Source: Candidatus Limnocylindria bacterium
Lineage (GTDB): Bacteria > Chloroflexota > Limnocylindria > P2-11E
NCBI GenBank assembly: GCA_035651155.1
Contig: DASRGG010000021.1
Span: forward strand, 339,752 to 403,751
Length of the DNA: 64,000 bases
Direction: 5' to 3'
Part shown: positions 34,913-56,659 of the stretch, in pieces
How positions within the stretch are numbered: the first letter of the stretch is position 1
Layout of the letters: the number at the start of each line of letters is the position of its first letter
Notes under the pieces: model-generated
Database searches by the model: none
What the model was told of the DNA's origin: nothing
What the model saw: the letters and a program-made list of their open reading frames with translations, nothing else
Program-made: the position numbers and the translations under genes

Positions 34913-35881
34913 TCAGTCGAGCCGCGCGGCGCCGACCTCCTGCCTGATGCGCGCGACGGTGCCGTCCCGCTGCAGGCTCTCGAACGCGCGCACGACCTCG
35001 GGATCGAACTGCGCGCCGGCGCCGGAGGCGATGGCCGCCATGCCCTCCTCGAGGCTCCACGCGTCCTTGTACGGGCGCTTCGAGGTGAGCGCGTCGAACA
35101 CGTCCGCCACCGACACGATGCGCGCGGCGAGGCTGATCTCGCTCCCCTTCTTCCCGTCGGGGTAGCCCGTGCCGTCCCAGCGCTCGTGGTGCTCGCGCGC
35201 GATGGCGCGCGCGGTCTCGAAGAAGCGCGCGTCGCCGAGCATGACCTCGCCGTCGATGCAGTGCTGCTTGATGACCTCGAACTCCTCCGTCGAGAGGTGG
35301 TGCTCGCTCTGGAGGATGTGGTCGGGCGTGTGGATCTTGCCCACGTCGTGCATGACGCTCGAGTAGCCGAACTCCTCGATGAGCTCTTGGCGAAGTCCGA
35401 GCCGCTGCGCGATCGCCTCGACGTAGCGGCGGACGCGCAGCAGGTGCGCGCCGGTGGTCTGGTCCTTGAGCGTCGCCGCGAGCAGGAGATGGCTGATGCC
35501 TTGCAGGCCCGTGCGGCGCAGCTCCTCGTTCGCGATCCGCTCCTGCTCGAGCGCGTGCTCGAGCTGCGCGGCACGCTGGCGCTCGGTGCGGAGCATCTCC
35601 GCGAGGTCCTCCGCGTAGCGCGTCGTCTGGCGCTCCATGAGGCGCAGCTCCTTGAGCTTCGCCTCGTACTCGGCGCGGATCCGCTGCTCGCGGTGATAGA
35701 CCTCGGCGAAGTCCGCGGCCATGCGGACGGACTGCGCGTTCGCCTGGTCGGCGACGCGGATGGCCTGCTGGAGGAGCTGGCGGAACACCTCGCCCGCGAC
35801 GGTCTGCCCCTCCGGCGGGAGCGCGACGTTGGGAGAGACCTCCACGACCTCTATGGTCATGCGCTCCTCGTCATCAGGCAT
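34913..35881 (-). CDS. HD-GYP domain protein (cyclic-di-GMP phosphodiesterase family) with N-terminal coiled coil
   Basis: HD motifs HDVGKI and HHERWDGTGYP (HD-GYP signature); the N-terminal 150 aa are coiled-coil-like. Start overlaps the upstream receiver gene by 11 nt. Confidence 0.75.
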   Translation of the reverse strand: MPDDEERMTIEVVEVSPNVALPPEGQTVAGEVFRQLLQQAIRVADQANAQSVRMAADFAEVYHREQRIRAEYEAKLKELRLMERQTTRYAEDLAEMLRTERQRAAQLEHALEQERIANEELRRTGLQGISHLLLAATLKDQTTGAHLLRVRRYVEAIAQRLGLRQELIEEFGYSSVMHDVGKIHTPDHILQSEHHLSTEEFEVIKQHCIDGEVMLGDARFFETARAIAREHHERWDGTGYPDGKKGSEISLAARIVSVADVFDALTSKRPYKDAWSLEEGMAAIASGAGAQFDPEVVRAFESLQRDGTVARIRQEVGAARLD

Positions 35882-35888
35882 GCGTCTC

Positions 35889-36260
35889 TTATGAGTGCGT
35901 GAGGATCCCGCGGATCGTATCGATGAGCTCGAGCGGGCCGAACGGCTTCGTGAGGTACTGCGTCGCGCCGGCCGCGAACCCGAACGCACGGTCGCTCTCC
36001 GATTCGTGCGCCGTGAGCATGACGACGGGAATGTCCTTCGTCGCCTCCTCGGCCTTCAACGTCTTGCAGACCTCGAATCCGTTGGGTCCGGGGCCCATGT
36101 CGACGTCGAGCAGGATGAGGTCGGGCTTCGAGCTACGCGCGGTGTCGAGGGCCTCGGTCCCGTTCTTGGCCTCGAGGATGGTCCAGCCCTGCGTGGACAG
36201 CGTGATCCGCACCATCTGACGGATCGGCACGAGGTCGTCGGCGACGAGAAGTGTTGCCAT
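35889..36260 (-). CDS. Single-domain response regulator (CheY-like receiver)
   Basis: 123 aa; LLVADD, phospho-acceptor Asp in LILLDVDMGPG, conserved T (MLTAHES) and K (YLTKPF). Confidence 0.8.
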   Translation of the reverse strand: MATLLVADDLVPIRQMVRITLSTQGWTILEAKNGTEALDTARSSKPDLILLDVDMGPGPNGFEVCKTLKAEEATKDIPVVMLTAHESESDRAFGFAAGATQYLTKPFGPLELIDTIRGILTHS

Positions 36261-36319
36261 GGAGAGGGATGGTAGGCGCTCCGGTCATCGGTCCGACCCC
36301 CTGCAAGGGGGGTTCGAGC

Positions 36320-37042
36320 CTAGACGAGCGCCTTCCCCCTCGCGGGTGAGCGATCCCGCGACGGCGTTTCCAGCGTGATGAGCCCGAGCCTCGCCGCCTC
36401 GGCGACGGCCTCGAGCCGCGAGTGCGCGCCGAGCTTCCGGAGGACGGCCTGCACGTGCGCTCGCAGCGTGGCGGTCGAGATCCCGAGCAGCTGCGCTCCG
36501 ATGCTCGTGCTCGCGCCCCCGGCGAGGACGCGAAGGACGTCCAGCTCGCGCGCCGTGAGCGGCTCGTCGAGCGGCCGCTCGGCGCCGTCCATCACGAGCA
36601 ACCGCTGCAGCTCGCCCGGCGTGAAGAGGATCTCCCCCGCCGCGGCCGCGCGCACGGCCGCCACGACCTCGTCCAGCCCGCGGTCCTTCGTGAGGTGGCC
36701 GACCGCGCCCGAGCGCGCGACGTCGGCGAGCGTTGCGCCCGACGGATCGCCGGTGAGGACGAGGACGGCGACGCCGGGTGCGGTGCGGCGGAGCGTGCGC
36801 GCGACGTCGGCGCCGGTGCCGTCCGGCAGGTGGTAATCCGTGAGCGCGACCGCCGGCCGAAGGCGCGGTGCCGCCTCGAGCGCGCTCGCGACGTCTTGCA
36901 CGACGCCCGCGACCTCGATGTCCGGCGCGTTCGACAGCGCGACGCGCATGAGCTCGGCGAAGAGGCGCTCGTCGTCCACGACGAGGACGCGGAGCCTACG
37001 CTCGCTTCGCTCCCTCGACAGGGGCCCCTCCCCCTGGGTCAT
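36320..37042 (-). CDS. NarL/FixJ family response regulator (REC + LuxR HTH)
   Basis: RVLVVDDE, Asp in VALTDYHLPDG, and the C-terminal LuxR HTH LTARELDVLRVLAGGASTSIGAQLLGISTATLRAHVQAVLRKLG. Confidence 0.85.
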   Translation of the reverse strand: MTQGEGPLSRERSERRLRVLVVDDERLFAELMRVALSNAPDIEVAGVVQDVASALEAAPRLRPAVALTDYHLPDGTGADVARTLRRTAPGVAVLVLTGDPSGATLADVARSGAVGHLTKDRGLDEVVAAVRAAAAGEILFTPGELQRLLVMDGAERPLDEPLTARELDVLRVLAGGASTSIGAQLLGISTATLRAHVQAVLRKLGAHSRLEAVAEAARLGLITLETPSRDRSPARGKALV

Positions 37043-38343
37043 CGCATCCCCTCCGCCGACCGCACCTGGGCGGCGAGCGCTGCGACGACCGCGGGGTCGA
37101 GCTCGCCCTTCGTGACGGCGCCCTGGAGGATGCGTACGGCCTCCTGCTCCGAGACCTTCGCGCGGTCGGGACGGTCGACGAGCAGGGCCTCGAAGCGATC
37201 CGCCACGGTGACGACGCGCACCTCGAGCGGCAACCCGTCCGCCCGCTTGTGGTCCGGATAGCCGCCGCCGTCGAGCCGCTCGTGATGCCAGCGCACGATC
37301 GGGAGGATCGCGCGCAGCGGCGCGACGCCCTCGAGGATCTCCTCGCCCAGGATCGGATGACGCTCGACGAGCTCGCGCTCGCCGGACGTCAGCTCGCCCT
37401 GCTTCTGGACGAGGGCCGGCGGCAGTTTCGCGTTCCCGATATCGCGCAGCAGCGCGCCGAGACGGATCGTGCGGATCGCCTGCTCGTCGAGCCCGAGGAC
37501 CTGCGCAGCGGCGACGGCACGCGCCGCGACACGGTCCGAGTGGCCCACCGTCGAGCGGTCGCGGCTCTCGAGCGCGGTCGCGAGCGTGATGAGCGCGTCG
37601 GCCGCGGCGTCGAGGTCCCGATCGACGCGCCGCTCGCGCACCAGGAGACCGGCGACACGCGGGAGCTCGTCGTCGAGACGGGCCGCATCCGCGCCCGGCG
37701 CGACCCCGTCGCCGACGATCTCGAGGACGACCGTCTCCTCGTCCGCGAGATCGGCCGGCACCACCCCACCCGCGTCCAGGAGCACCAGATCCGCCGTCCG
37801 GCCGCCCTCCTCCGCCACGTCGAAGGTCCGAGCGAGCAGCGACTGGGCACGGCGCCGCCGCGCGGCGTCCGAGAGCGCGATCGCCGCGATCGGACGGGCG
37901 CGCCCGGGACGCGTCGAGGGAGGCTCGAGACGCGGCGGGCGTGCGCTGCGCGTCTGCTGCAGGACCACGTCGATGCGCGCCAGGAGCTCCGCCGCGTTCC
38001 AGGGCTTCGTGACGTAGTCCGCGGCGCCGCACGATAGACCGCGGACCTTGTCGACCACCTCGCCGCGCGCGGAGAGGAAGATCACCGGGATGTGCGCCGT
38101 GTTGCCGTCGCTCTTGATGCGGAGGCACACGTCGTAGCCATCGGTGTCCGGGAGCATCACGTCGAGCAGCACCAGGTCGGGCAGCACCTTCTTCACGAGC
38201 GCGAGGCCCTCGCCGCCGTCGCGACCGACCGCCACCGTCATCCCATTCGCCTCGAGACGGCGCTGCAGCACGTCGGCCGACGCGGGGTCGTCCTCGACGA
38301 CCACGACGCTCCTGGCGGGCCTGGCGTCCTTCGCGATGGTCAT
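37039..38343 (-). CDS. Response regulator with HD-GYP output domain (RpfG-like)
   Basis: N-terminal REC (VVVVEDDPASADV..., LVLLDVMLPDTDG, YVTKPW), then the HD-GYP domain (HSDRVAARAV..., HHERLDGGGYP). Confidence 0.8.
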   Translation of the reverse strand: MTIAKDARPARSVVVVEDDPASADVLQRRLEANGMTVAVGRDGGEGLALVKKVLPDLVLLDVMLPDTDGYDVCLRIKSDGNTAHIPVIFLSARGEVVDKVRGLSCGAADYVTKPWNAAELLARIDVVLQQTRSARPPRLEPPSTRPGRARPIAAIALSDAARRRRAQSLLARTFDVAEEGGRTADLVLLDAGGVVPADLADEETVVLEIVGDGVAPGADAARLDDELPRVAGLLVRERRVDRDLDAAADALITLATALESRDRSTVGHSDRVAARAVAAAQVLGLDEQAIRTIRLGALLRDIGNAKLPPALVQKQGELTSGERELVERHPILGEEILEGVAPLRAILPIVRWHHERLDGGGYPDHKRADGLPLEVRVVTVADRFEALLVDRPDRAKVSEQEAVRILQGAVTKGELDPAVVAALAAQVRSAEGMR

Positions 38344-39098
38344 GCCGTCGCCTCCCCGTCGCCGAGCAGATGACGCATCGCGATGACGTACTTCGACGGT
38401 CGCTCGTTCACCATGCGCTCGTGGATGTAGCCGTACAGCTCGTCCGCCCAGTGCGGTAGCTGGTCGAACCACTTGACCTCGATCACCACGCCAGGCTCGC
38501 GGCCGATGACCGGCCCGAGCTTGCACGGGATCGCCTCGTCCGAGTTCGCCTCCCAGGGCAGCGCGAGGTACATGAGGTTGTGGTCGGCGGTGATGCGCAC
38601 CGTACCGTCCGGCGCCGAATACGCGATGCGGTTGTACTGCGTCGCCACGACGGGACGCACGCCCGCCTGCACCAGCGCCGCGACGTTCGCCGCGAGCGGC
38701 CCGGGCTGCGTCTCCACGGACCGCTCGCCGCGGAGGTACGCGGGCACCTCCTTCGTGGGAACGCGATAGCGCTCCTTCGTCGACGCGCCCGGCGAGTCGT
38801 CCTTCATCTCCAGGAAGATCGACTCGCCGCTGAACGCGTCGTTCGGACGGGTGCGGTGGTATTCGCGCAGCCGGAGCTGGACCGCGTGCCCTTCCTTCTC
38901 CGCGCCCAGCACGCGGAAGTCGTACGTGTCGCAATACGTCGTGGTCGACCACTGGTACGGCCGGTCCTCGCGGTCGAGCGGCAGGTAGGCGCCGGCGGTG
39001 CGCAGCGCGAGACGGGCGACCGCTTCGTTCACGAGGAAGCGGTGCTCCTTGCGCGGCTCGTTCGCCGTCGACACGCGTGTCGTCGAGAGCGTCGTCAT
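38340..39098 (-). CDS. VTC domain-containing protein (polyphosphate polymerase-like CYTH/VTC fold)
   Basis: EHRFLVNEAVARLALRTAGAYLPLD...YQWSTTTYCDTYDF...LRLREYH matches the bacterial VTC-domain (PF09359) pattern. Family assigned from memory. Confidence 0.5.
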   Translation of the reverse strand: MTTLSTTRVSTANEPRKEHRFLVNEAVARLALRTAGAYLPLDREDRPYQWSTTTYCDTYDFRVLGAEKEGHAVQLRLREYHRTRPNDAFSGESIFLEMKDDSPGASTKERYRVPTKEVPAYLRGERSVETQPGPLAANVAALVQAGVRPVVATQYNRIAYSAPDGTVRITADHNLMYLALPWEANSDEAIPCKLGPVIGREPGVVIEVKWFDQLPHWADELYGYIHERMVNERPSKYVIAMRHLLGDGEATA

Positions 39099-39102
39099 CT
39101 CA

Positions 39103-40611
39103 TCACTCCGCCGAATCCACGGCCACGGCGAGGACCCCGCGCCGGGTGAGCGCGAGACGGGCGCCGTGCGCCACCTCGTCGGTCCCCTCCTCGGCCACGG
39201 CGCGTAGCAGCTCGGTGGGCACCGCGGCGCCATCGGCACGCAGCATCTCGACGGCGCTCCGCCGCATCGCGGCGTCCTCCGACGCGAGGTTCTGCGCGAT
39301 GCGCCGGCCGAACACGCGGCGCGTCTGCCACGTGGTGGCCACGTAGACCGCCGAGGAGCCCGCTCCTGCCGCGAGCAGCGCGGTCGTCGAGAGGTTCGCG
39401 ATGCCCAGGATGAGCGCGATCGCCGCGGCCATGTTGCCGATCGCGTTGACGCCGCCCGACAGGAACGCGCGGGCGCGCGGTCGGATCGCGGCCGCGATCT
39501 GGCTGTACACGAGCTCGGTCGCGGGCCGATGGATCGCCGGGATGACGATGCGCTCGCCGATCTGCAGCGCGATCACGGCAGGCAGCACGAGCCATGCGAC
39601 GTTCCCACCGTAGGCGTACGACGCGACGCCGTACGCGCCGACGTACCAGAGGGGCAGCGCGAACAGCACGCGGGCGACGCCGAAGCGGCGCACCAGCGGC
39701 GTCGTGATGAACGACTGGATCCCGAGGGCGACGAGCGACGAGCTCGTGTACACGGACGCGTACAGGATGCTGAAGACGTCCTCCTGCCCCACCTGCGTCG
39801 TCGCGGACGCGGAGGACTGGTCGAGGCCCACGAGGTACAGGAAGTTCGCGAACTGCATCAGGAAGTACCAGAAGAAGACGCCCAGGCCGAAGACGCGCAG
39901 CAGCCGATCGGCGCCGACCGTGCGATAGCCGTCGACGGAGTCGCGGAGGCTCTCGCGCAGGCCGCTGGGACGGCGGGCGATCTTCGCGTGGAGGCCCTCA
40001 CCCTCGGGCAGATCGCGGTACAGCACGATCGCGATGAGGCACACCGCGAAGCCGACCGCCTGGGCGCCGATGAAGTTCTCCGCGTGCACCAGCGGCGCGA
40101 TCCCCGCGCCGACGGCGCCGCCGAGGATCTTCCCCACCAGCACCGAGCCCGCGAAGAACGGGAAGAGGCGCTTCGACTGCTCGACGTCGTAGAGGTTCCC
40201 CGCGTACACCCAGAAGAGGATGTAGATCGTCTCCTTCACGCCGTGCGCGAAGATGTAGGAAATAGGCTGTATGGCTCCCGTCGCGCCGGACGAGATGGCC
40301 CACTGGATGAGCAGCGAGGAGACCGTCACGGACGCGACGTACCAGATGAGCATCGTGCGCCGGCGGACGCGGTCGACGAAATAGAAGATCAGGCCGGAGA
40401 CCGCGAGCATCACGATCGGCGTGACGATGTACATCTTCGGGATCTCGTTGACGCCGTAGCGCTTCACGAAGAGCGCGTCCGCGCCGAGCTTTCCCACCCA
40501 GTCCGCGGCCACCATGAGCGTCAGGACGCCGTACAGGAAGAGGCCGAGCTTCCACTCGCCGCGGCGCAGCGGCACGACGTCGACGAGGACCGTCCGCAGC
40601 CGCACGATCAC
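39103..40611 (-). CDS. Nucleotide-transporter-like (TLC/NTT family) 12-TM transporter with C-terminal HEAT-like repeats
   Basis: 502 aa; N-terminus LRRGEWKLGLFLYGVLTLMVAADWVGKLGADALFVKRYG resembles the ATP:ADP antiporter family start. The C-terminal 60 aa (AMRRSAVEMLRADGAAVPTELLRAVAEEG) look like HEAT repeats. Confidence 0.5.
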   Translation of the reverse strand: MIVRLRTVLVDVVPLRRGEWKLGLFLYGVLTLMVAADWVGKLGADALFVKRYGVNEIPKMYIVTPIVMLAVSGLIFYFVDRVRRRTMLIWYVASVTVSSLLIQWAISSGATGAIQPISYIFAHGVKETIYILFWVYAGNLYDVEQSKRLFPFFAGSVLVGKILGGAVGAGIAPLVHAENFIGAQAVGFAVCLIAIVLYRDLPEGEGLHAKIARRPSGLRESLRDSVDGYRTVGADRLLRVFGLGVFFWYFLMQFANFLYLVGLDQSSASATTQVGQEDVFSILYASVYTSSSLVALGIQSFITTPLVRRFGVARVLFALPLWYVGAYGVASYAYGGNVAWLVLPAVIALQIGERIVIPAIHRPATELVYSQIAAAIRPRARAFLSGGVNAIGNMAAAIALILGIANLSTTALLAAGAGSSAVYVATTWQTRRVFGRRIAQNLASEDAAMRRSAVEMLRADGAAVPTELLRAVAEEGTDEVAHGARLALTRRGVLAVAVDSAE

Positions 40612-42140: not shown

Positions 42141-42142
42141 CG

Positions 42143-44464
42143 TCAGGACCTCGCGCCGAGCGACGCCTGCTCGACCTGCGCGGCGCGCATGCGGACCGGA
42201 AGCGTGAAGCGGAACGTGCTGCCGACGCCCACGGTGCTGTCCACCCAAATGCGCCCGCCGTGCAGCCCGACCAGGCGCTTCGAGATGGCGAGGCCGAGGC
42301 CGGTGCCGCCGTACTTGCGGGTCGTCGAGCTATCGGCCTGCCGGAACTCGTCGAAGATGTACGCGAGCGCGTCCTGCGGGATGCCCACGCCCGTGTCCGT
42401 GACCGCGAGCGTGATCCAGCCGTCGGCCGACGCCGCCGCGATGGTGACGCTGCCGTGCTCGGTGAATTTCACCGCGTTCGCGGCGAGGTTCACGAGGATC
42501 TGCCGGATGCGCGCCCGGTCGGCGAACGCCGCGGGCAGGCCGCGCGGCACGTCCATCTCGAGCGCGAGCCCCTTGCCCTCGGCCTGCGGCCGGACGAGCT
42601 CGATGACCTCTTCGACGACGGCCTGGATGTCGATCTCCTCGGCGTCCAGCTCCATCTTGCCGGCCTCGATCTTCGCCAGGTCGAGCAGGCCGTTGATCAG
42701 CCCGAGGAGGTTGTCGCCGGCCTGCGCGACGCGCTGCAGGTCCGCGACCTGCTGCTCGGTCAGATCGCCATCGAGCCCGTCGAGCATGAGCTTCGTGTAG
42801 CCGATGATCGCGTTCATCGGCGTGCGGAGCTCGTGGCTCACGGACGCGAGGAACTCGCTCTTGAGGCGGTTCGCACGCTCGAGCTGCAGGTTGTTGTCCC
42901 GCAGCTCGGACACCAGGTCGGCGTTCTCCTTCGCCACCGAGACCAGCCGGGCGATGGTCCGCATGGCGCGTGCTTCGGTCTCGCTGATCTCGCGCGGCGC
43001 CTTGAAGTACGCCGACAGGAGGCCCACCGCGCGGCCGCGCGCTGAGAGCGGGATGTGCGCGACGTACGGGAGCGGCGAGCCCTCCACCTGCGCGTGCTGG
43101 ATGCGGTTCGGGTCGTGGGCGCTCGACACGAGCACGCGCGTCGCGGTGGCGACCGCGACGTCCGGCTCGATGTTCATGACCGTCGCCGGCACCAGTCGGC
43201 CACCGGAGCCCAAGGGCGCGCCGGGCGGGTCCTCGCGGATGACGATCGACGCCCCATCCGCCCGGAAGAGAGCCACCATGCGCGAGAGCGACTCCGCGAA
43301 GATGCGCTCGCGATCGGTGACGCCGACGACCGCGTCCGCGACCTCGTTGACCGTGCGTACCTCGGCGAGGTACTCCTGCTGCGCGCGCTCGCGGTCGTGG
43401 AGCGAGCGCGCCATCGTGTCGAAGGCGCGCTCGAGGGTGCCGATCTCGTGGCTCGAGCGCTTCTCGACGGTCACCTGCAGGTCGCCCGACTCGATCCGCT
43501 GCGCCGCCGCGGCGAGGTTCGCGAGGGGCTTCGTCATCGCGGTCGCCGAGCGGTACGCGAAGAAGGTGACGAGGATGATGAGTCCGGCCGCGAGGGCCAC
43601 CATGATCGCGAGCAGCGTGCGCTGCGCGCTCAGCACCGCGCTCGTCGGGACGAGGACCGCCAGGACGCCGGGGTTCTGGTTGAAGTTGCGCATGACGCGG
43701 AAGGTGCCGTAGTAGTCCGTACCGTCGACCGTGACGTTCTGGAAGAGCGTGTCGCGCTCGCCCTTGTCGACGGCGCCGACCGTTGGGAAGATCGCGCCGT
43801 CGATCGCGAGCGCCCTTCCGTCCGGCCCGGTGAACGTCGACCCGCGGACCTTGCCGTTCCAGACGAGCGCGATCTGCGCGTCGCTCTTTGGGTTGATGCT
43901 CTTGAGGAAGTCGTCGCTGAGGATGGAGCCGACCTCCACGACGCCGACGGGATCCTGTTCCGCGCCGCGCACGACGAAGATCGCGCGGATCACCAGACCC
44001 TCGGCCTCGTCGTAGAGGACCCACGACTGCTGCGCGCCGGCCCGCGTGAGCGCGAGGAGCTCGGGCCGGAGCGTCTCTCCCCGCTTCACGTCTTGCGCGC
44101 CCGCGAGGTAGACGCCGTTCGTGTCGGCGACGTTCATGACGTCCACGCCAAGACGAGACTTCTGCGGGATCAGGAAGCTCTGCAGCCCGGCCGTGTCGCG
44201 AGCCTCGGTGAGCTGGCGCGTCGTGGGCAGACCGGCGATGAGCGACGCGGCACGCACCATGAGGGTCGCCTGGTCGTCGATCTGGTTGCGAGCCGTCTGC
44301 GCCACAACGTTCGCCTCGTCCTCGAATTGTTTCCCGACGAGAGCGTTCGATTCGTACGGCGCCACGGCCGCGAGCACGATGAGCGCGACGACGGCGGCGC
44401 CGACCGTGCGTCCGACGAGCGCGCGCAGCAAGCTCGGCGCGAAGAGCTGCGAGATGAGGCGCAT
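42143..44464 (-). CDS. Sensor histidine kinase (periplasmic Cache-like sensor, HAMP, GAF, HisKA, HATPase_c)
   Basis: Two TM helices flank a ~250-aa periplasmic domain. HAMP (PLANLAAAAQRIESGDLQV), GAF-like region, H-box SHELRTPMNAIIGY, G-boxes DTGVGIP and GGTGLGLAISK. Confidence 0.8.
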   Translation of the reverse strand: MRLISQLFAPSLLRALVGRTVGAAVVALIVLAAVAPYESNALVGKQFEDEANVVAQTARNQIDDQATLMVRAASLIAGLPTTRQLTEARDTAGLQSFLIPQKSRLGVDVMNVADTNGVYLAGAQDVKRGETLRPELLALTRAGAQQSWVLYDEAEGLVIRAIFVVRGAEQDPVGVVEVGSILSDDFLKSINPKSDAQIALVWNGKVRGSTFTGPDGRALAIDGAIFPTVGAVDKGERDTLFQNVTVDGTDYYGTFRVMRNFNQNPGVLAVLVPTSAVLSAQRTLLAIMVALAAGLIILVTFFAYRSATAMTKPLANLAAAAQRIESGDLQVTVEKRSSHEIGTLERAFDTMARSLHDRERAQQEYLAEVRTVNEVADAVVGVTDRERIFAESLSRMVALFRADGASIVIREDPPGAPLGSGGRLVPATVMNIEPDVAVATATRVLVSSAHDPNRIQHAQVEGSPLPYVAHIPLSARGRAVGLLSAYFKAPREISETEARAMRTIARLVSVAKENADLVSELRDNNLQLERANRLKSEFLASVSHELRTPMNAIIGYTKLMLDGLDGDLTEQQVADLQRVAQAGDNLLGLINGLLDLAKIEAGKMELDAEEIDIQAVVEEVIELVRPQAEGKGLALEMDVPRGLPAAFADRARIRQILVNLAANAVKFTEHGSVTIAAASADGWITLAVTDTGVGIPQDALAYIFDEFRQADSSTTRKYGGTGLGLAISKRLVGLHGGRIWVDSTVGVGSTFRFTLPVRMRAAQVEQASLGARS

Positions 44465-44475
44465 CGTTATCCGGC

Positions 44476-45321
44476 CTAGAGGCTCGCGAGGACCTTCTGT
44501 CCGTCGGGGCCCTTGACCCAATCGATGAACGCGCGCATCGCCGGCTTCAGCTTCTCCGCGTCCACGTTGTAGACGAAGTACAGCGGACGGCGGATGGGAT
44601 ATGTCCCGTTCGCGAGGTTCTCGCGCGACGCCGCGATGCTGTCGATCGTGAGCAGCCGGACCTCGTTGTTGGTCAGCGTCTGCGCGTTGATCGTCATCAT
44701 GCCGATCGCGTCCTTGAACGACGCGATCGCCTTCTGCGTCTCGTCGATCTGGAAGACCTCGATCGCGTCCTTGGCGTAGACCGGCTTCGCTGTGCCGAAG
44801 AAGTACGCCTCGAAGGCGGAGCGCGTGGCGGACTCGGGCTCGCGCAGCAGCACGCGGATCTTGCCGGGCGTGCCCCCGACGTCCTTCCAGTCCGTGAGCT
44901 GGCCGGAGAAGATCTTGGAGACCTGGTCCTTCGTGAGCGCCTTCACGGCGTTGCCCGCGTTGACGCCCACGCCGGTGCCGGAGGCGCCGATGCTCAGCGT
45001 CTCGACGGTGCCCTTCTCGGCGGCCTTGAGGTCGCGGCTGATGTAGCCGATGTCGACAGAGCCGTCGATCGCGAGCCTCACCCCGGCGTCGGAGCCGACG
45101 TCATCGAACCCCTGCCAGATGACGCCCGGGTGGACCTTCGAGAACCCAGCGGTGAGCGCCTTCACGGCGTCGGTCGCGCCGCCGCCGCCCTTGAGCACGT
45201 AGGTACCGGCGATGGGATCGTCGGTGGGCTTCGCCTGGAGCGGCCCGGCGCCGCCGCAGCTGGCCGCCAGCAGGCCCAGGACCGTACCGCAGACGAACAG
45301 CCGTATGGCGGTTTCCACCAT
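44476..45321 (-). CDS. PstS-like phosphate-binding protein family lipoprotein (PBP superfamily)
   Basis: Lipobox LLAASCGG; type-2 periplasmic binding fold motifs (IGASGTGVGVNAG, SRDLKAAE) as in phosphate-binding PstS homologues. Confidence 0.65.
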   Translation of the reverse strand: MVETAIRLFVCGTVLGLLAASCGGAGPLQAKPTDDPIAGTYVLKGGGGATDAVKALTAGFSKVHPGVIWQGFDDVGSDAGVRLAIDGSVDIGYISRDLKAAEKGTVETLSIGASGTGVGVNAGNAVKALTKDQVSKIFSGQLTDWKDVGGTPGKIRVLLREPESATRSAFEAYFFGTAKPVYAKDAIEVFQIDETQKAIASFKDAIGMMTINAQTLTNNEVRLLTIDSIAASRENLANGTYPIRRPLYFVYNVDAEKLKPAMRAFIDWVKGPDGQKVLASL

Positions 45322-45386
45322 TCGCCTCCCCTGGCACGCGATGAAGTCGCGCCAGTCTTGTCCATCCGGATGTGGCCGCCATCCCC

Positions 45387-45656
45387 CTAACGGGGAGTAG
45401 GCCGCCCTACTCCATTTGGCGGACGCGGCACGGCACGGCCGGTCGCCTTGGAACGCGGGAGCCGCCCCAGGAGGCGCGTCGTGGCGGCCTCGACCGCGGC
45501 CACGGCGGCCTCGAACGCGTCCGCGTTCTTCGCCGAGGGCTCCCGGAAACCGGACACCTTGCGTACGAACTGGCGCGCCGCCGCCCGGATCTCGTCTTCC
45601 GTCGCCGGGACCGGACCGCGCAGGGTGTGGATGCTCCTACACACAGGCAGGAACAT
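45387..45656 (-). CDS. DUF2277-like small protein
   Basis: (V)CRSIHTLRGPVPATEDEIRAAARQFVRKVSGFREPSAKNADAFEAAV matches the remembered MCRxIKTL...EEIRAAALQFVRKVSGF pattern of DUF2277. Start uncertain. Confidence 0.4.
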   Translation of the reverse strand: MFLPVCRSIHTLRGPVPATEDEIRAAARQFVRKVSGFREPSAKNADAFEAAVAAVEAATTRLLGRLPRSKATGRAVPRPPNGVGRPTPR

Positions 45657-45696
45657 ACCGCTTCTTTCGTGAACCTCGGTAGCGCTCCCGGCTGTG

Positions 45697-46698
45697 CTAG
45701 CGCCCATTCGGGCCGTCCGCGGGACGCATCGCGGCGGCGGCCGCGGCCGGCATATTCGGAAGGCGCAGCGTCACGCGGCTGCCCCGGCCGATGGCCACGC
45801 GCTCGACGTCGACGCTCCCGCCCATCGCCTCCACGAGCAGTCGCGCGAGCTGCATGCCGACCCGCAGGTCCGCTCCCCGGATGGAGCGCGTCGCGCCCGC
45901 GGGCATCGCGGCAGACACCGACACGAGCGCCTCGTCCGCTCGCGCGCGTACGTTGATGGAGACGTAGTCGATCGCGCCGGCGTCGCTCACCACGTGCGCG
46001 ATGGTGTTCGCCAGCGCCTGGCGCAGGCGGTCGGGATCGGCCATCACCACGAGGCCGTCGCCCGGGACGGTGACGGGCAACGAGCCGCGGTCGGGCCGCT
46101 CGCGAGAGATCTCGGCGACGAGCTGCGCGATGTCCACGGGGACCGAGCGCAGCGGCAGCCGGCTGGCCTGCGCCCGGCCCAGCGCGACGAAGTCGCGGGT
46201 CAGGAAGAGCAGCGATTCGGCGCGATGCCGCAGCGCGTCGATGGCGCCGGCCTCGAGCGCTCCGCTTGCCTGCGCCTCGTTCAACACGGTCACCATCTCC
46301 TGAGCGGGGACGGGGAGCTCGTGCTCGAGCACGCGCAGGAATTGATCGCGCTCCGCGTCGATCCGCGCCATGCGGCCGCGATCCGTCCTCACGCGATCGA
46401 TGAGCAGCGCGCCGCCGACGAAGATCGCAAGGCGGCTGAGCGCGTTCCACACGATCGGCGCGAGCGCCTGCTCGGGTCGCTGCGCCGCGTCGGCGCCGAA
46501 CCACATCGCGGCGGACGCGACGGCCACGATGAGGCCGGGGCCGAGCCCCAGGCGCCACGCCACAGGGATGATCGGGGTGAAGTAGAAGAAGGCGAAGCCG
46601 TAGTCGGGCCCGGTCACGAAATCGACGAAGCCGATGGCGCCCACCAGGGCGAGGCCGAGGACGAGCCCGCGGACCGTCGAACCGATCATCCGCGGCAT
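45697..46698 (-). CDS. Membrane-bound sensor histidine kinase
   Basis: 3-4 N-terminal TM helices (Fxx-rich, DUF4118-like), H-box LRVLEHELPVP, and C-terminal ATPase region with GxG boxes. Confidence 0.65.
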   Translation of the reverse strand: MPRMIGSTVRGLVLGLALVGAIGFVDFVTGPDYGFAFFYFTPIIPVAWRLGLGPGLIVAVASAAMWFGADAAQRPEQALAPIVWNALSRLAIFVGGALLIDRVRTDRGRMARIDAERDQFLRVLEHELPVPAQEMVTVLNEAQASGALEAGAIDALRHRAESLLFLTRDFVALGRAQASRLPLRSVPVDIAQLVAEISRERPDRGSLPVTVPGDGLVVMADPDRLRQALANTIAHVVSDAGAIDYVSINVRARADEALVSVSAAMPAGATRSIRGADLRVGMQLARLLVEAMGGSVDVERVAIGRGSRVTLRLPNMPAAAAAAMRPADGPNGR

Positions 46699-46743
46699 CG
46701 TGCGGCCCGGGCGGTGCCCGTGGCCATCCCCCGACGGTGGAAC

Positions 46744-47133
46744 CTATCGGGGGGTCCCGGCGTGCGCCCTCGGCTTCAGGTGCTTCCGCAGCATGTCGCG
46801 CATCTGCTCGGGGTAATACGGCTTCGGAAGGAAGTCGTCGCAGCCGGTGCGGAGCGCGCGGTCGCGCTCCGGCGGCGTGGCCGACGCGGAGACCGCCACC
46901 ACCGGCACCCGCTTCCCCCACTCCTCCTCGCGCAGCTTCTTTACGAACCCCCAGCCGTCCAGCTTGGGGATGTGCAGGTCGAGCAGGACGAGATCGGGCC
47001 GGACGGCGCGCGCCACGGCGAGGGCCGTCTCGCCGTCGGCGGTCGTGATCGGCTCGTGCTTCTCGAGCCGGACGATCCGGAGCGCGAGGTCCATGCTCGC
47101 CGGATCGTCCTCGACGATCAGGACGCGCGCCAC
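46744..47133 (-). CDS. Single-domain response regulator (receiver only)
   Basis: (V)ARVLIVEDDPASMDL, Asp in LVLLDLHIPKLDG, T/K motifs (VVAVSAS, FLPKPY). The upstream 95 codons of the track ORF are read-through. Confidence 0.75.
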   Translation of the reverse strand: MARVLIVEDDPASMDLALRIVRLEKHEPITTADGETALAVARAVRPDLVLLDLHIPKLDGWGFVKKLREEEWGKRVPVVAVSASATPPERDRALRTGCDDFLPKPYYPEQMRDMLRKHLKPRAHAGTPR

Positions 47134-47191: not shown

Positions 47192-48169
47192 GTGCTCGTC
47201 CTGACCGAAGCCGAGGTCGAGGGTCTCCTCGATACCGATCTGCTCCGCGAGGCCGTCGGGCGCGCGCTCGCCGACCTCTCGGCGGGGCACGCGTCGATGC
47301 CGACCCGGATCGCCGCCCAGGTCGCCGAACGCGACGCCATGCTCGCCGCGATGCCGGCGTACCTGCCCGCGGCGGGTGCGCTCACCACGAAGCTCGTGTC
47401 GCTCTTCCCACGGAACACCGACCGTCCGACGCATCAGGCGGTCATCGTCGCCTTCGATCCGGCGACGGGGACGCCCGCCGCGCTCATCGACGGCGAGTCC
47501 ATCACCGCCGCGCGGACGGCGGCGGCCTCGGCGCTCGCGACCGACCTCCTCGCGCGTCGCGACGCGAAGACGCTCGCGATCGTCGGCACGGGTGTGCAGG
47601 CGCGCGCGCATCTGCGCGCGGTGCGGCGCGTGCGTCCCTTCACGCGCGTCGTCGTCGCGGGGCGCGATCGCGCGAAGGCCGAGCGTCTGGCGCTGCAGGA
47701 GAGCGCGCCAGGCGCGCCGGTCGCCGCGCTCGAGCACGTCGAGCAGGCGGTGCGCGAGGCGGACGTCGTGTGCGCGTGCACGCACGCCGCGGAGCCGGTC
47801 GTCCGTCGCGAGTGGCTGCGCGACGGGACGCACGTGAACTCCGTCGGCTACAACACCGCGGGCCGCGAGGTCGACGAGCGCACCGTCGTCGACGCGCGCG
47901 TCGTCGTCGAATCGCGCGCGGCCGTGCTCGCGCCGCCGCCCGGCGGCTCGAACGACATCGCGTGGCCGATCCGCGACGGGAAGATCACCGCGGCGCACAT
48001 CCACGCCGAGCTCGGCGAGATCGTGAGCGGGGCTCGCCCCGGGCGAGCGAACGACCGCGAGATCACCCTCTACAAGTCCGTCGGCGTCGCCGTCGAAGAC
48101 GCCGCCGCCGCCGCGCTCGTGCTGAAGCTCGCGCGCGAACGCGGCGTCGGTCGAGAGATCGAGATCTAG
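47192..48169 (+). CDS. Ornithine cyclodeaminase / mu-crystallin family protein
   Basis: 325 aa; Rossmann LAIVGTGVQARAHL and family-typical N- and C-terminal motifs. Confidence 0.85.
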   Translation: MLVLTEAEVEGLLDTDLLREAVGRALADLSAGHASMPTRIAAQVAERDAMLAAMPAYLPAAGALTTKLVSLFPRNTDRPTHQAVIVAFDPATGTPAALIDGESITAARTAAASALATDLLARRDAKTLAIVGTGVQARAHLRAVRRVRPFTRVVVAGRDRAKAERLALQESAPGAPVAALEHVEQAVREADVVCACTHAAEPVVRREWLRDGTHVNSVGYNTAGREVDERTVVDARVVVESRAAVLAPPPGGSNDIAWPIRDGKITAAHIHAELGEIVSGARPGRANDREITLYKSVGVAVEDAAAAALVLKLARERGVGREIEI

Positions 48170-48216
48170 GGCGTAGGGGACGAGCGTCGGCGCCGCGAGG
48201 AGCGGGACCGCGAGCG

Positions 48217-56586: not shown

Positions 56587-56659
56587 AGCGGAAGACGGGT
56601 CTCGAACCCGCGACCTCGTCCTTGGCAAGGACGCGTTCTACCAACTGAACTACTTCCGC
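56587..56659 (-). tRNA. tRNA-Gly (anticodon GCC)
   Basis: GCGGAAG/CTTCCGC acceptor, anticodon stem CGTCC/GGACG with loop TTGCCAA, T-arm GCGGG-TTCGAGA-CCCGT. Confidence 0.85.

What the first reader, a model, noticed from the sequence alone, without database searches (positions are those of the whole stretch)
34913..47133. 12 kb minus-strand signalling supercluster: two HD-GYP proteins, four receivers, LuxR regulator, three kinases including a dual-receiver hybrid, PstS-like lipoprotein
Nearly every gene here is a signalling component, most with 4-nt start/stop overlaps. The order is REC, RpfG-like REC-HD-GYP and LuxR-RR; then VTC and a transporter; then a hybrid kinase with two receivers and a Cache-HAMP-GAF kinase; then a PstS-like binding protein, DUF2277, a membrane kinase and a receiver; a stand-alone coiled-coil HD-GYP ends the block. 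This points to a multi-input phosphorelay coupled to c-di-GMP turnover, possibly responding to phosphate or polyphosphate through the PstS-like sensor.
Basis: partly seen in the sequence, partly recalled or inferred. Interest (0 to 1): 0.55.

Follow-up and report, generated by a model that had tools for sequence, protein, structure and literature searches.

The report
Conserved phosphorelay module with embedded VTC enzyme
This is a real 12-gene signalling gene cluster, conserved across a whole class of soil and freshwater Chloroflexota; it wires two-component kinases and c-di-GMP-degrading enzymes to a phosphate-binding-like sensor protein, a transporter and a polyphosphate-polymerase-like enzyme, a combination not described before.

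Summary
Window 34913-47133 is an unbroken run of 12 minus-strand genes, and Pfam confirms every domain call. Corrections: there are six receiver domains, not five. Only 3 of 11 junctions are 4-nt overlaps. The membrane kinase G2 lacks its ATP-lid boxes. The "RpfG-like" protein G9 carries (R/K)D-GYP, never HD-GYP, in about 50 orthologues.

The cluster is not a chance co-location. A core of PstS-like protein, Cache-HAMP-GAF kinase, REC-REC kinase, (MFS), VTC, REC-RD-GYP, REC-LuxR, REC and HD-GYP keeps its order in every Ca. Limnocylindria locus with enough flank (31/33 by strict script, effectively 33/33).

The VTC protein models confidently as a Vtc4-type polyphosphate-polymerase tunnel and keeps the tunnel residues. 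Its clade sits with signalling genes in other lineages too. There it is found next to PstS-like + Cache-HAMP-GGDEF-EAL + MFS genes, and twice fused as cNMP-VTC-HisKA-HATPase.

Best reading: a branched phosphorelay with an SBP-assisted external sensor and a (poly)phosphate- or NTP-linked VTC/MFS unit. It drives a LuxR regulator and c-di-GMP hydrolysis. The ligands and the VTC activity are untested.

I rate it a new variant of a known kind, moderately high interest.

The parts
46744..47133 (-). G1: stand-alone receiver (129 aa). It is a paralogue of the first receiver of G6 (50% identity). Accessory gene: absent in L009 and the L010-type clade, and on the opposite strand in the L038-type clade.
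   Evidence: Pfam Response_reg 80 bits. D/D/D/S/K residues intact and 50% identity to G6-REC1. Distribution.
45697..46698 (-). G2: membrane histidine-kinase-like protein (333 aa, 3 TM). It has an H-box (LEHELPVP) and an N-box but lacks the G1 (DxGxG) and G2 ATP-lid boxes. It is probably a pseudokinase or phosphatase. Accessory gene.
   Evidence: HATPase_c 29.9 bits, DUF4118 weak. Motif inspection. TM segments. The window type is present only in the window, L001, L008, L012, L014, L017 and a few metagenome loci.
45387..45656 (-). G3: DUF2277 small protein (89 aa; alternative start at 45707 or 45644). It recurs upstream of the core in most loci and is absent in the L010-type clade.
   Evidence: Pfam DUF2277 89.5 bits. 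tblastn hits in uncalled gaps of L001, L006 and L007. Distribution. No PDB relative.
44476..45321 (-). G4: extracytoplasmic PstS-family solute-binding protein, probably a lipoprotein (LLAASC). It is an orphan, with no pstCAB genes nearby. Proposed co-sensor of G5.
   Evidence: PBP_like_2 104 bits. TIGR02136 119.6 bits, below the 206.6 cutoff. 94 bits to C. perfringens PstS 4gd5 with altered GSTS and GSSAG motifs. N-terminal hydrophobic segment. An 11-nt gap separates it from G5.
42143..44464 (-). G5: membrane sensor kinase. Layout: TM, a roughly 250-aa extracytoplasmic dCache-like domain, TM, then HAMP-GAF-HisKA-HATPase. All kinase boxes are canonical.
   Evidence: Pfam. TM at 16-34 and 284-302. 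SHELRTP, N, DTGVGI and GGTGLGL boxes conserved in 42-45 orthologues.
40608..42140 (-). G6: soluble REC-REC-HisKA-HATPase kinase (510 aa), a second-tier kinase gated by receivers.
   Evidence: Response_reg x2 183 bits, HATPase_c 90 bits, HisKA 24.5 bits. H-box LGHDIRN in 49/49 orthologues, with G1/G2 boxes and both acceptor Asp conserved. No TM.
39103..40611 (-). G7: polytopic membrane protein of MFS fold (500-502 aa) with a C-terminal helical-repeat tail. JGI annotates homologues as 'ATP/ADP translocase'. Substrate unknown. It starts 4 nt inside, or 2 nt after, the end of G6, and G8 starts 4 nt after its stop.
   Evidence: No Pfam or NCBIfam hit. Weak MFS_1 on homologues. About 9-12 hydrophobic helices. 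A low-confidence model (pLDDT 51.7) matches only MFS transporters, including NTT1. Present in 27 of 33 full loci.
38340..39098 (-). G8: VTC-family triphosphate tunnel metalloenzyme (252 aa), Vtc4-like. It is the invariant non-canonical core component. Its stop overlaps the G9 start (ATGA).
   Evidence: Pfam VTC 91 bits. AF2 model pLDDT 86.5. Best PDB match is yeast Vtc4 polyP polymerase, E 2e-15, TM 0.68-0.70, against ygiF at 4e-9. Invariant tunnel residues E18, R76, R78, E97, K99, K108, R110, R157, R168, D172, E207, K209, K236. Small clade.
37039..38343 (-). G9: response regulator with REC, a linker of about 110 aa, and a variant HD-GYP domain. The HD His is Arg (Lys in 3 orthologues) and the HDxGK Lys is Asn. 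The other metal ligands and HHExxDGxGYP are kept. Probably not a normal phosphodiesterase.
   Evidence: Response_reg 94 bits, HD_5 109 bits. Aligned to V-cGAP3: LLRDIGN against LLHDIGK. (R/K)D in about 50/50 orthologues.
36320..37042 (-). G10: NarL/LuxR-type response regulator transcription factor (REC-GerE). Its start overlaps the G9 stop (ATGA).
   Evidence: Response_reg 65 bits, GerE 48 bits. Best NCBIfam matches are MadR/MctR/NarL, all below cutoff.
36292..36318 (-). GC-rich stem-loop (CCCCCC-TTGCA-GGGGG with flanking pairs) directly after the G10 stop. A possible U-tract-less terminator or attenuator.
   Evidence: Sequence. A positionally conserved hairpin with different stem and loop letters occurs in most related loci. 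The consensus terminator scan does not call it.
36269..36274 (-). TACCAT, a -10-like hexamer about 9 nt upstream of the G11 ATG. A possible internal promoter for G11-G12.
   Evidence: A TA(A/C/G)CAT motif is conserved at the same place across loci. Inference only.
35889..36260 (-). G11: stand-alone receiver (123 aa). It is the most conserved protein of the module (72-96%). Proposed phospho-switch partner of G12, forming a 'split RpfG'.
   Evidence: Response_reg 89 bits. Catalytic residues intact. Identities.
34913..35860 (-). G12: stand-alone canonical HD-GYP phosphodiesterase (315 aa from ATG 35860, which has a GAGGAG Shine-Dalgarno sequence; 322 aa from 35881). It has a charged helical N-terminal region. 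It is the binuclear type, because it lacks the Glu four residues before the first His.
   Evidence: HD_5 126 bits. 154.8 bits to PmGH 4mcw, with HDVGK, HHERWDGTGYP, DVFDAL and KRPYK aligned. Canonical in 45/45 orthologues. Binuclear criterion from bioRxiv 10.1101/2021.11.05.467447.

Best explanation
The locus is one conserved, multi-tier signalling module of Ca. Limnocylindria (Chloroflexota).

Shown:
- Gene content, domain integrity, conserved order, and recurrence of the same component families in distant lineages.

Inferred mechanism:
1. The orphan PstS-family lipoprotein G4 binds an extracellular oxyanion. Phosphate or a larger phosphate-like anion is the leading guess. G4 then docks on the Cache-like domain of the membrane kinase G5, as LuxP does on LuxQ and PstS does on CtpL.
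2. G5 autophosphorylates and passes phosphoryl groups to receivers. These include the two receivers of the soluble kinase G6, which acts as a second tier. G1, a paralogue of G6-REC1, would act as a competing sink or connector.
3. The Vtc4-like tunnel enzyme G8, usually paired with the MFS-fold membrane protein G7, ties the relay to intracellular triphosphate/polyphosphate/ATP chemistry. It does so either as a ligand-sensing input to the kinase, the position it occupies in the cNMP-VTC-HisKA-HATPase fusions, or as a polyphosphate-making or -hydrolysing effector coupled to transport.
4. There are three outputs. G10 changes transcription. G11 (REC) controls the canonical HD-GYP enzyme G12, which cuts c-di-GMP to pGpG. 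G9, a phosphorylatable (R/K)D-GYP variant, most likely binds nucleotide or partner proteins without normal hydrolysis and modulates the pathway, as the degenerate HnoD does in Shewanella.
5. G2 (degenerate kinase) and G3 (DUF2277) are lineage-variable accessories.
For: - Domains.
- All six receivers and the G5 and G6 kinase boxes are intact.
- Tight spacing with three 4-nt overlaps in the centre and no intragenic-independent terminators.
- The ordered core is present in 31/33 (effectively 33/33) Limnocylindria-type loci with enough flank, from 49 species-representative genomes plus 44 metagenome contigs and 6 look-ups. The same module sits in different flanks in L010.
- G12 is a canonical HD-GYP. 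G9 is (R/K)D-GYP in about 50/50 orthologues.
- G8 has a Vtc4-like fold and a conserved tunnel.
- G8-clade VTC recurs with signalling partners elsewhere: MFS-VTC-FIST-PAS-GGDEF-EAL; VTC followed by REC-PAS-HisKA; cNMP-VTC-HisKA-HATPase fusions in two independent contigs, one flanked by cNMP-GGDEF, a HAMP kinase, three PstS-like proteins and a G7-like MFS; PstS-like + HAMP-GGDEF-EAL + G7-like MFS + VTC; VTC-VTC-MFS-PstS-like.
- Precedents for SBP-assisted sensors: PMC8050422. For degenerate RpfG-family modulators: 10.1101/2021.11.05.467447.
Against: - No experimental or expression data exist.
- Kinase-receiver partnerships are inferred only from adjacency.
- G4 scores below the PstS cutoff and has altered, variable anion-site motifs, so phosphate is a guess.
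- G8's reaction is unknown. Its first strand reads RxExRF (Glu kept, Lys replaced by Arg), unlike Vtc4 as I recall it, and there is no Vtc1/DUF4956-type channel partner.
- G7 is absent from one subclade (L008, L009, L011, L013, L014, L017). G7 homologues also occur away from the module, next to cytochrome bc genes. It is therefore not obligatory.
- The VTC-kinase fusion was seen only twice and may come from one lineage.
- No GGDEF gene was seen in any Limnocylindria-type locus (crude regex), so a c-di-GMP source in these organisms was not demonstrated.
- The hairpin and -10-like motif before G11 suggest separate transcription of G11-G12.
Confidence: 0.6

Rival explanations
1. Effector model. 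VTC (G8) and the MFS protein (G7) are not sensors. They are the regulated output: a PPK-independent phosphate-uptake and polyphosphate-synthesis (or polyP export) unit, analogous to yeast MFS phosphate transporters plus the VTC complex. The surrounding two-component and c-di-GMP genes only control when it runs.
For: - G8 is structurally closest to the Vtc4 polymerase and keeps the tunnel residues, including the equivalents of E426 and S457/K458.
- G8 starts 4 nt after the G7 stop.
- MFS-VTC pairs recur in distant loci.
- The PstS-like protein fits a phosphate theme.
- The fold hits for G7 include phosphate transporter PiPT and nucleotide transporters.
Against: - G8 sits in the middle of the relay, translationally coupled to G9 (and to G6 where G7 is absent), not at the end of an operon.
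- In two contigs the domain is fused N-terminal to a kinase core, the position of an input domain.
- G7 is dispensable in one subclade.
- There is no channel subunit of the Vtc1 type.
Confidence: 0.25
2. Different-messenger model. The HD-GYP proteins here do not act on c-di-GMP. They act on another nucleotide (for example 3'3'-cGAMP) or on a product of the tunnel enzyme G8. The module would then be a self-contained synthesis, degradation and receptor system for a non-canonical messenger.
For: - No GGDEF gene appears in any Limnocylindria-type locus.
- Some HD-GYPs hydrolyse cGAMP, and G9 and G12 hit V-cGAP3 5z7c.
- TTM relatives include class IV adenylate cyclases.
- G9's conserved but altered site could be a receptor.
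Against: - G8 matches Vtc4 far better than the cyclases (E 2e-15 against about 1e-6).
- G12 has all c-di-GMP-binding motifs, including RxxK.
- Distant versions of the module carry GGDEF or GGDEF-EAL proteins, pointing to c-di-GMP.
- The GGDEF check covered only about 20 kb per genome.
Confidence: 0.08
3. Loose-island model. The genes are several independent two-component systems that merely sit together, with no shared pathway. VTC, MFS and DUF2277 would be unrelated passengers.
For: - G1-G3 vary in presence and orientation.
- A likely transcription boundary lies between G10 and G11.
- Signalling genes are numerous in soil bacteria.
Against: - The core order is fixed in all adequately covered loci over deep divergence, and in a different genomic context.
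- Start/stop overlaps link kinase-MFS and VTC-RR-RR.
- The same families re-associate in other lineages in other orders and as fusions.
Confidence: 0.05

Closest known systems
Shewanella/Vibrio H-NOX network: HnoK kinase with response regulators HnoB (REC-EAL), HnoC (transcription factor) and HnoD (REC-degenerate HD-GYP)
   Same: One kinase tier feeds several receivers. The outputs are a c-di-GMP phosphodiesterase, a DNA-binding regulator and a catalytically degenerate REC-HD-GYP protein that modulates the active enzyme (10.1101/2021.11.05.467447).
   Different: - The input here is an SBP plus a Cache kinase, not H-NOX/NO.
- The active enzyme is an HD-GYP split from its receiver (G11 + G12), not REC-EAL.
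- G9 loses only the HD His and the HDxGK Lys and keeps HHE and GYP, whereas HnoD loses both motifs.
- A second REC-REC kinase tier, a VTC enzyme and an MFS protein have no counterpart.
RpfC/RpfG (Xanthomonas): two-component control of an HD-GYP response regulator
   Same: Both are sensor kinase plus REC-HD-GYP regulator systems that link an extracellular cue to c-di-GMP signalling. G9 has the RpfG domain order.
   Different: - G9 fails the HD motif test.
- It has a linker of about 110 aa between REC and HD-GYP.
- The canonical HD-GYP (G12) has no fused receiver.
- There are no rpfF/DSF genes.
Yeast VTC complex (Vtc4 catalytic tunnel domain, polyphosphate polymerase)
   Same: G8 has the same fold (Foldseek E 2e-15, TM about 0.7). 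It keeps the tunnel Arg/Lys/Glu residues that align with R264/R266, R361, R373, E426 and S457/K458 (numbering from the alignment and PMC4641920). It is also associated with a membrane protein.
   Different: - G8 is a stand-alone 252-aa protein with no SPX domain and no Vtc1-type transmembrane channel.
- Its partner is a 12-helix MFS-fold protein.
- The first strand has Arg where Vtc4 has Lys-200 (my recollection of the numbering) and keeps a Glu typical of hydrolytic TTMs.
- It is embedded in a phosphorelay, and its activity is untested.
SBP-assisted sensors: LuxP-LuxQ, TorT-TorS, PstS-CtpL
   Same: In these systems an orphan or shared periplasmic binding protein delivers ligand information to a membrane receptor (PMC8050422). 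G4 is encoded 11 nt upstream of the Cache kinase G5, with no ABC transporter genes nearby.
   Different: - The G4-G5 interaction is inferred from adjacency only.
- G4 is a divergent PstS-family member with an unverified ligand.
- In other lineages the same SBP type precedes Cache-HAMP-GGDEF-EAL proteins.
UhpABC (E. coli): the MFS-like sensor UhpC signalling to kinase UhpB and the NarL-type regulator UhpA (own knowledge, not tested here)
   Same: A transporter-fold membrane protein is encoded beside a kinase and a LuxR/NarL-family regulator. This offers a way for G7 to act as a co-sensor.
   Different: There is no sequence relationship between G7 and UhpC (no Pfam match). G6 is soluble. This is an analogy only.

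Membership tests
HD-GYP c-di-GMP phosphodiesterase (G12) | HD dyad, the other His/Asp metal ligands, the HHExxDGxGYP motif and the RxxK substrate motif | tested here: met
   HDVGK, KQHCIDG, HHERWDGTGYP, VADVFDAL and KRPYK align to PmGH 4mcw at 154.8 bits. They are conserved in 45/45 orthologues.
HD-GYP c-di-GMP phosphodiesterase (G12) | Hydrolysis of c-di-GMP | not testable with these tools
   Needs an enzyme assay. The absence of the E185-equivalent predicts the binuclear type, which stops at pGpG.
HD-GYP / RpfG family (G9) | Metal-binding His of the HD dyad | tested here: not met
   LLRDIGN aligns to LLHDIGK of 5z7c. The position is R in about 47 and K in 3 of about 50 orthologues, and is never H.
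HD-GYP / RpfG family (G9) | HHExxDGxGYP motif and an N-terminal receiver with the acceptor Asp | tested here: met
   HHERLDGGGYP is conserved. REC scores 94 bits with D, D, D, S, K intact.
HisKA-type histidine kinase (G5, G6) | H-box His and the N, G1 (DxGxG) and G2 (GxGxG) ATP-binding boxes | tested here: met
   G5: SHELRTP, LAANAVKF, TDTGVGI, GGTGLGLA. G6: LGHDIRN, LLANAVKN, SDTGPGI, GGTGLGLA. Conserved across 42-50 orthologues.
HisKA-type histidine kinase (G2) | G1 (DxGxG) and G2 ATP-lid boxes | tested here: not met
   VSVSAAMPAGA and GADLRVGMQLA occupy the places of the G1 and G2 boxes. HATPase_c scores only 29.9 bits and HisKA is not detected. The H-box LEHELPVP is present.
Receiver domains (six) | Acidic pair, phospho-acceptor Asp, Thr/Ser and Lys (CheY D12/D13/D57/T87/K109) | tested here: met
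   All six are aligned to CheY.
VTC / Vtc4-type triphosphate tunnel metalloenzyme (G8) | Closed eight-strand beta-tunnel fold closest to Vtc4 | tested here: met
   Model pLDDT 86.5, pTM 0.85. The top 13 PDB hits are all VTC subunits, E down to 2e-15 and TM 0.60-0.70. Pfam VTC 91 bits.
VTC / Vtc4-type triphosphate tunnel metalloenzyme (G8) | Conserved charged tunnel residues | tested here: met
   E18, R76, R78, E79, E97, K99, K108, R110, R157, R168, D172, E207, K209 and K236 are invariant over 22 sequences down to 25% identity and in 55 orthologues. The first-strand Lys is Arg in the whole clade.
VTC / Vtc4-type triphosphate tunnel metalloenzyme (G8) | Membrane channel partner of the Vtc1/DUF4956 type and polyphosphate polymerase activity | tested here: not met
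   No such gene exists in the window cluster or the related loci. The neighbour is an MFS-fold protein. The activity itself cannot be tested with these tools.
PstS phosphate-binding protein (G4) | Score above the family cutoff, canonical phosphate-ligand motifs, and adjacency to pstCAB | tested here: not met
   TIGR02136 scores 119.6 against a cutoff of 206.6. GSTS is replaced by GGGA(T) and GSSAG by GSDAG, while SRDLK and RE..S.TR are kept. The motifs vary among orthologues. There are no ABC transporter genes in the cluster.
PBP_like_2 superfamily (G4) | Domain match above the Pfam gathering score | tested here: met
   104.2 bits against a cutoff of 27.
NarL/LuxR response regulator (G10) | REC plus a C-terminal GerE helix-turn-helix | tested here: met
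   Response_reg 65 bits, GerE 48 bits.
Major facilitator superfamily (G7) | 12-helix MFS fold or a Pfam MFS match | tested here: inconclusive
   The window protein has no Pfam hit. Homologues have weak MFS_1. The low-confidence model (pLDDT 51.7) matches only MFS structures, TM 0.45-0.55.
NTT/TLC ATP/ADP translocase (G7) | Match to the TLC family | tested here: not met
   No Pfam or NCBIfam hit. No PDB sequence hit with a profile. NTT1 structures are only among many MFS fold matches. The JGI label 'ATP/ADP translocase' is unverified.
Anti-phage defence system | Match to PADLOC models | tested here: not met
   Only generic partial REC/HD similarities were found.

The most novel reading that the evidence does not exclude
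A small bacterial clade of Vtc4-like tunnel proteins is a previously unrecognised signalling component. It would be either a cytoplasmic sensor/input domain for tri- or polyphosphate or NTP status that gates histidine kinases and c-di-GMP enzymes, or a PPK-independent polyphosphate synthase working with an MFS partner under direct phosphorelay and c-di-GMP control. Together with a PstS-like extracellular sensor, it would form an inside-and-outside phosphate-status circuit. The conserved (R/K)D-GYP regulator would be a new non-hydrolytic HD-GYP subtype.
Probability: 0.3. Interest if true: 0.8.

Novelty: new variant of a known kind. Interest (0 to 1): 0.6.

Why it matters
Bacterial VTC-domain proteins have no assigned function, and polyphosphate synthesis in bacteria is attributed to PPK enzymes.

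This module shows a Vtc4-like enzyme hard-wired into a phosphorelay that controls c-di-GMP. The wiring holds across a whole, uncultured but abundant, class of soil and freshwater Chloroflexota. In other lineages the same enzyme is fused into a kinase or paired with GGDEF-EAL sensors. This yields a concrete hypothesis that can be tested with purified proteins: (poly)phosphate status and c-di-GMP signalling are directly coupled.

The module also supplies three further study objects:
- a natural split RpfG (REC + HD-GYP);
- a stable (R/K)D-GYP variant for studying what non-catalytic HD-GYP domains do;
- a recurrent PstS-like/Cache pair as a candidate SBP-assisted sensor.

Tried and rejected
- Exact look-up of G7 with the 502-aa start found nothing. 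The database copy uses the start two codons later.
- NCBIfam gave no equivalog-level name for any of ten proteins.
- The consensus promoter/terminator scan found nothing useful in intergenic regions.
- The G7 profile against PDB sequences gave no hit. The G7 AF2 model was poor (pLDDT 51.7), so its fold matches are only indicative.
- G8 against PDB by sequence was marginal (E 0.008). Structure prediction was needed.
- A search for more VTC-kinase fusions with the fused VTC domain returned only stand-alone VTC proteins. The second fusion came from the metagenome scan.
- DUF2277 and the G9 linker have no solved relatives.
- Rfam found only two tRNAs elsewhere in the window and no riboswitch.
- PADLOC gave no defence-system match, so the defence-island idea is rejected.
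- A regex scan for GGDEF in 963 kb of held DNA found none. That DNA is mostly redundant copies of this locus, so the result says little about the genomes.
- Literature searches found no paper linking the VTC domain to two-component or c-di-GMP signalling, and nothing on this cluster in Limnocylindria papers.
- I first misread 'SIGASGTG' in G4 as the SGT phosphate motif. The alignment to 4gd5 showed that the true equivalent is 'ESATR'.
- The idea that G7 is peculiar to this cluster was rejected. Homologues at 66-68% identity lie next to cytochrome bc genes.

Full report

The window is about 70% G+C, so raw ORF lists are full of spurious frames. A third-position GC frame plot resolves one uninterrupted run of minus-strand coding sequence from 34913 to 47133. 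It is bounded by plus-strand genes on both sides: 33707-34816 (MFS_1) and 47192-48169 (ornithine cyclodeaminase family). Start-codon inspection gives twelve genes, named G1 to G12 in transcription order.

- REC (G1);
- a membrane kinase with HATPase_c (G2);
- DUF2277 (G3);
- PBP_like_2 (G4);
- dCache_3 (marginal)-HAMP-GAF-HisKA-HATPase (G5);
- REC-REC-HisKA-HATPase (G6);
- VTC (G8);
- REC-HD_5 (G9);
- REC-GerE (G10);
- REC (G11);
- HD_5 (G12).

G7 has no Pfam or NCBIfam match. No NCBIfam equivalog cutoff is reached by any protein.

**2. Corrections of detail**

There are six receiver domains, not five. All carry the acidic pair, the acceptor Asp, Thr/Ser and Lys when aligned to CheY. G1 is 50% identical to the first receiver of G6.

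Only three junctions are 4-nt overlaps: G6/G7 GTGA, G8/G9 ATGA and G9/G10 ATGA. The other eight are gaps of 2, 4, 11, 28, 40, 45, 59 and 65 nt.

G5 and G6 have complete H, N, G1 and G2 boxes. G2 has an H-box but lacks the G1 (DxGxG) and G2 boxes. The window-type G2 occurs in only some relatives.

G12 is a textbook HD-GYP. It scores 154.8 bits to the Persephonella PmGH structure, with HDVGK, HHERWDGTGYP, DVFDAL and KRPYK aligned. It lacks the Glu four residues before the first His, which marks trinuclear enzymes, so it should stop at pGpG (criterion from 10.1101/2021.11.05.467447).

G9 aligns LLRDIGN to LLHDIGK of V-cGAP3. The metal-binding His of the HD dyad is Arg and the following Lys is Asn.

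**3. Is it one unit?**

The source is a Chloroflexota lineage, Ca. Limnocylindria. This follows from the names of the nearest records.

Contig look-ups with G7 and G8 homologues show one ordered core wherever the contig reaches. So do a scan of species-representative genomes with a VTC clade alignment (49 loci) and a metagenome scan (51 loci, 44 of this type). The core is G4-G5-G6-(G7)-G8-G9-G10-G11-G12.

Of 33 loci with enough flank on both sides, 31 pass a strict ordered-core script. The other two carry all the genes and were mis-scored because of an extra PstS-like paralogue downstream.

Divergence spans 86% down to 49% VTC identity. In L010 the module sits between unrelated flanks: FecR and a hydrolase on one side, TPR and CcmH on the other.

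G11 and G12 are the most conserved proteins (72-96% and 64-91%).

Variable parts:
- G7 is missing in one subclade (L008, L009, L011, L013, L014, L017).
- G1, G2 and G3 are present, absent or inverted depending on the clade.

No consensus terminator lies in any intergenic spacer. However, a GC-rich hairpin directly after the G10 stop, followed by a TA(A/C/G)CAT motif just before G11, is positionally conserved with varying letters. G11-G12 may therefore be a separate transcription unit. Rfam finds no RNA element in the cluster. PADLOC finds no defence system.

**4. The two non-canonical catalytic domains**

Across about 50 orthologues the HD position of G9 is Arg (about 47) or Lys (3), and never His. 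The first His, the third His, HHExxDGxGYP, the late Asp and the receiver Asp are all kept.

Known dead RpfG-family members such as HnoD (SE, QLE) and ECA3548 (HT, ANE) lose both motifs. G9 is therefore a stable variant rather than a decayed copy. I infer that it does not hydrolyse c-di-GMP in the usual way and acts through binding. This is not shown.

**5. The VTC protein and its partner**

G8 belongs to a small clade. Among 1.84 billion proteins there are 12 cluster representatives at E<=1e-30 and 320 at E<=1e-3.

An alignment reaching 25% identity shows these invariant residues: E18, R76, R78, E79, E97, K99, K108, R110, R157, R168, D172, E207, K209 and K236. They are also kept in 55 orthologues. 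Partial alignment to Vtc4 places R157, R168, E207 and S235/K236 on Vtc4 R361, R373, E426 and S457/K458. K458 is the catalytic Lys according to PMC4641920.

The AlphaFold model is confident (pLDDT 86.5). Its best PDB matches are the yeast polyphosphate polymerase Vtc4 and the other VTC subunits (E 2e-15 to 2.5e-12, TM 0.60-0.70). These are well ahead of the tripolyphosphatase ygiF (4e-9, TM 0.50) and the class IV adenylate cyclases (about 1e-6).

The first strand reads RxExRF in the whole clade. It keeps a Glu that PMC4641920 says is absent in Vtc4, and it has Arg where other family members have Lys. Polymerase versus hydrolase cannot be decided.

G7 has 9-12 hydrophobic helices. A shallow alignment gave only a poor model (pLDDT 51.7). 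That model matches nothing but MFS transporters, including the NTT ATP/ADP translocators. A sequence profile finds no solved relative. Homologues of G7 at 66-68% identity sit beside cytochrome bc/Rieske genes with no VTC.

**6. Evidence from outside the lineage**

This is the most informative result. G8-clade VTC genes at 36-47% identity were found in eight other contexts, all of them signalling contexts:
- MFS-VTC-FIST-PAS-GGDEF-EAL.
- VTC followed 7 nt later by a REC-PAS-HisKA kinase (L061).
- A 661-aa cNMP_binding-VTC-HisKA-HATPase fusion, flanked by REC, GAF and dCache-like genes (L060).
- A 663-aa fusion of the same architecture on an independent 274-kb contig. It is preceded by cNMP-GGDEF and followed by a HAMP kinase, three PBP_like_2 genes, a G7-family protein (56% identical) and a REC protein (L098).
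- PBP_like_2, then HAMP-GGDEF-EAL (N-terminus 35% identical to G5), then a G7-family MFS (54%), then VTC. This occurs on a 572-kb contig and on a second contig (L105, L104).
- VTC convergent with PBP_like_2 plus dCache_3-HAMP-GGDEF-EAL (L100).
- VTC-VTC-MFS_1-PBP_like_2, with a kinase nearby (L101-L103).

The fused VTC domain retains every clade-invariant tunnel residue and ends about 35 residues before the kinase H-box. A further search found no additional fusions, so this rests on two contigs.

The recurring set is therefore: VTC, an MFS protein, a PstS-like SBP, and a Cache/HAMP membrane sensor whose output is either a kinase or GGDEF-EAL. c-di-GMP enzymes are present in every version.

**7. 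Mechanism**

The best-supported reading is a branched, two-tier phosphorelay. Only the parts list, its integrity and its conservation are shown. The signal flow is inferred.

- Input 1: the orphan SBP G4 acts on the Cache kinase G5. Precedents are LuxP-LuxQ and PstS-CtpL (PMC8050422).
- Tier 2: the receiver-gated soluble kinase G6. G1 would act as a paralogous sink.
- The Vtc4-like G8, usually with G7, links the relay to tri- or polyphosphate or ATP chemistry. It acts either as an input (supported by the fusions and by its position between kinase and regulators) or as a regulated polyphosphate/transport effector (supported by its fold, its intact tunnel and its MFS pairing).
- Outputs: G10 (transcription), G11 plus G12 (a split RpfG that degrades c-di-GMP), and G9 (an (R/K)D-GYP modulator).

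The phosphate theme is plausible but rests on family resemblance. G4 scores below the PstS cutoff and has two altered, variable anion-site motifs.

**8. Comparison and novelty**

The closest functional analogue is the HnoK/HnoB/HnoC/HnoD network, which has one kinase tier, a PDE regulator, a transcription factor and a degenerate HD-GYP modulator. RpfC/RpfG, the yeast VTC complex and the SBP-assisted sensors each match one part.

Full-text searches found no paper connecting a VTC domain with two-component or c-di-GMP signalling, and nothing on this locus in Limnocylindria studies.

The general class, a two-component system controlling c-di-GMP, is well known. Three things are new:
- the conserved incorporation of a Vtc4-like enzyme, an MFS partner and a PstS-like SBP;
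- the VTC-kinase fusion;
- the stable (R/K)D-GYP subtype.

I rate it a new variant of a known kind, interest 0.6.

Noticed in passing
window 36261-36319 (minus strand), and the same spacer in L001-L059: A GC-rich hairpin (CCCCC-loop-GGGGG) lies directly after the G10 stop. A TA(A/C/G)CAT -10-like motif lies 9-20 nt before the G11 ATG. Both are positionally conserved, with differing stem and loop letters, across most loci. This may be a U-tract-less terminator plus an internal promoter.
   Followed up: partly
L060:1005-2990 and L098:7521-9512: Two independent contigs encode a fusion protein of about 660 aa: cNMP_binding-VTC-HisKA-HATPase. The VTC domain sits in the input position of a histidine kinase and keeps all tunnel residues.
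   Followed up: yes
L002:10001-11476, L004:10001-11494, L005:9759-11252: Homologues of the unassigned membrane protein G7 (66-68% identical) lie next to cytochrome b/Rieske/cytochrome c genes, DUF402 and succinyl-CoA ligase in other Limnocylindria. There is no VTC or signalling gene nearby. Whether they are paralogues or relocated orthologues is unresolved.
   Followed up: partly
L101:912-2781, L102:2889-4758: Two VTC-domain genes sit in tandem (the second only about 27% identical to G8), followed by an MFS_1 transporter and a PstS-like protein.
   Followed up: partly
window 46744-47133 versus 41760-42140: The stand-alone receiver G1 and the first receiver of the hybrid kinase G6 are 50% identical, sharing DGW and REEEW motifs. 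This suggests a duplication, and competition for the same phosphodonor.
   Followed up: partly
window 47192-51063 and L001, L006-L009: The upstream flank is conserved with the module in the closer clades. It comprises an ornithine cyclodeaminase/mu-crystallin gene on the opposite strand, then BatA/VWA and VWA-TPR genes. The 948-aa ORF at 48217-51063 in the window probably corresponds to two genes (about 324 + 600 aa) in the relatives.
   Followed up: no
L014, L032, L046, L051, L056 (genome contigs): Contigs carrying this Limnocylindria-type module are filed in MAGs labelled Acidiferrales, Dormiibacterota, Udaeobacter, Bathyarchaeia and Saccharimonadales. This is most likely binning contamination.
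   Followed up: no
L038-L054 and L058, about 1.6-3.7 kb upstream of the core: In a deeper clade the accessory trio is arranged as DUF2277 (+), then a G1-like REC (-) and a G2-like kinase (-). This kinase has normal G1/G2 boxes (DQGVGL, GVGLGLYVA), unlike the degenerate window G2.
   Followed up: partly
window 14718-14789 and 56587-56659: Two tRNA genes on the minus strand are the only Rfam matches in the window.
   Followed up: no
window 37600-38000 (G9 residues about 130-245): G9 has an Ala/Arg/Asp-rich linker of about 110 aa between REC and the HD-GYP domain, with no Pfam or PDB relative. RpfG proper lacks such a linker.
   Followed up: partly
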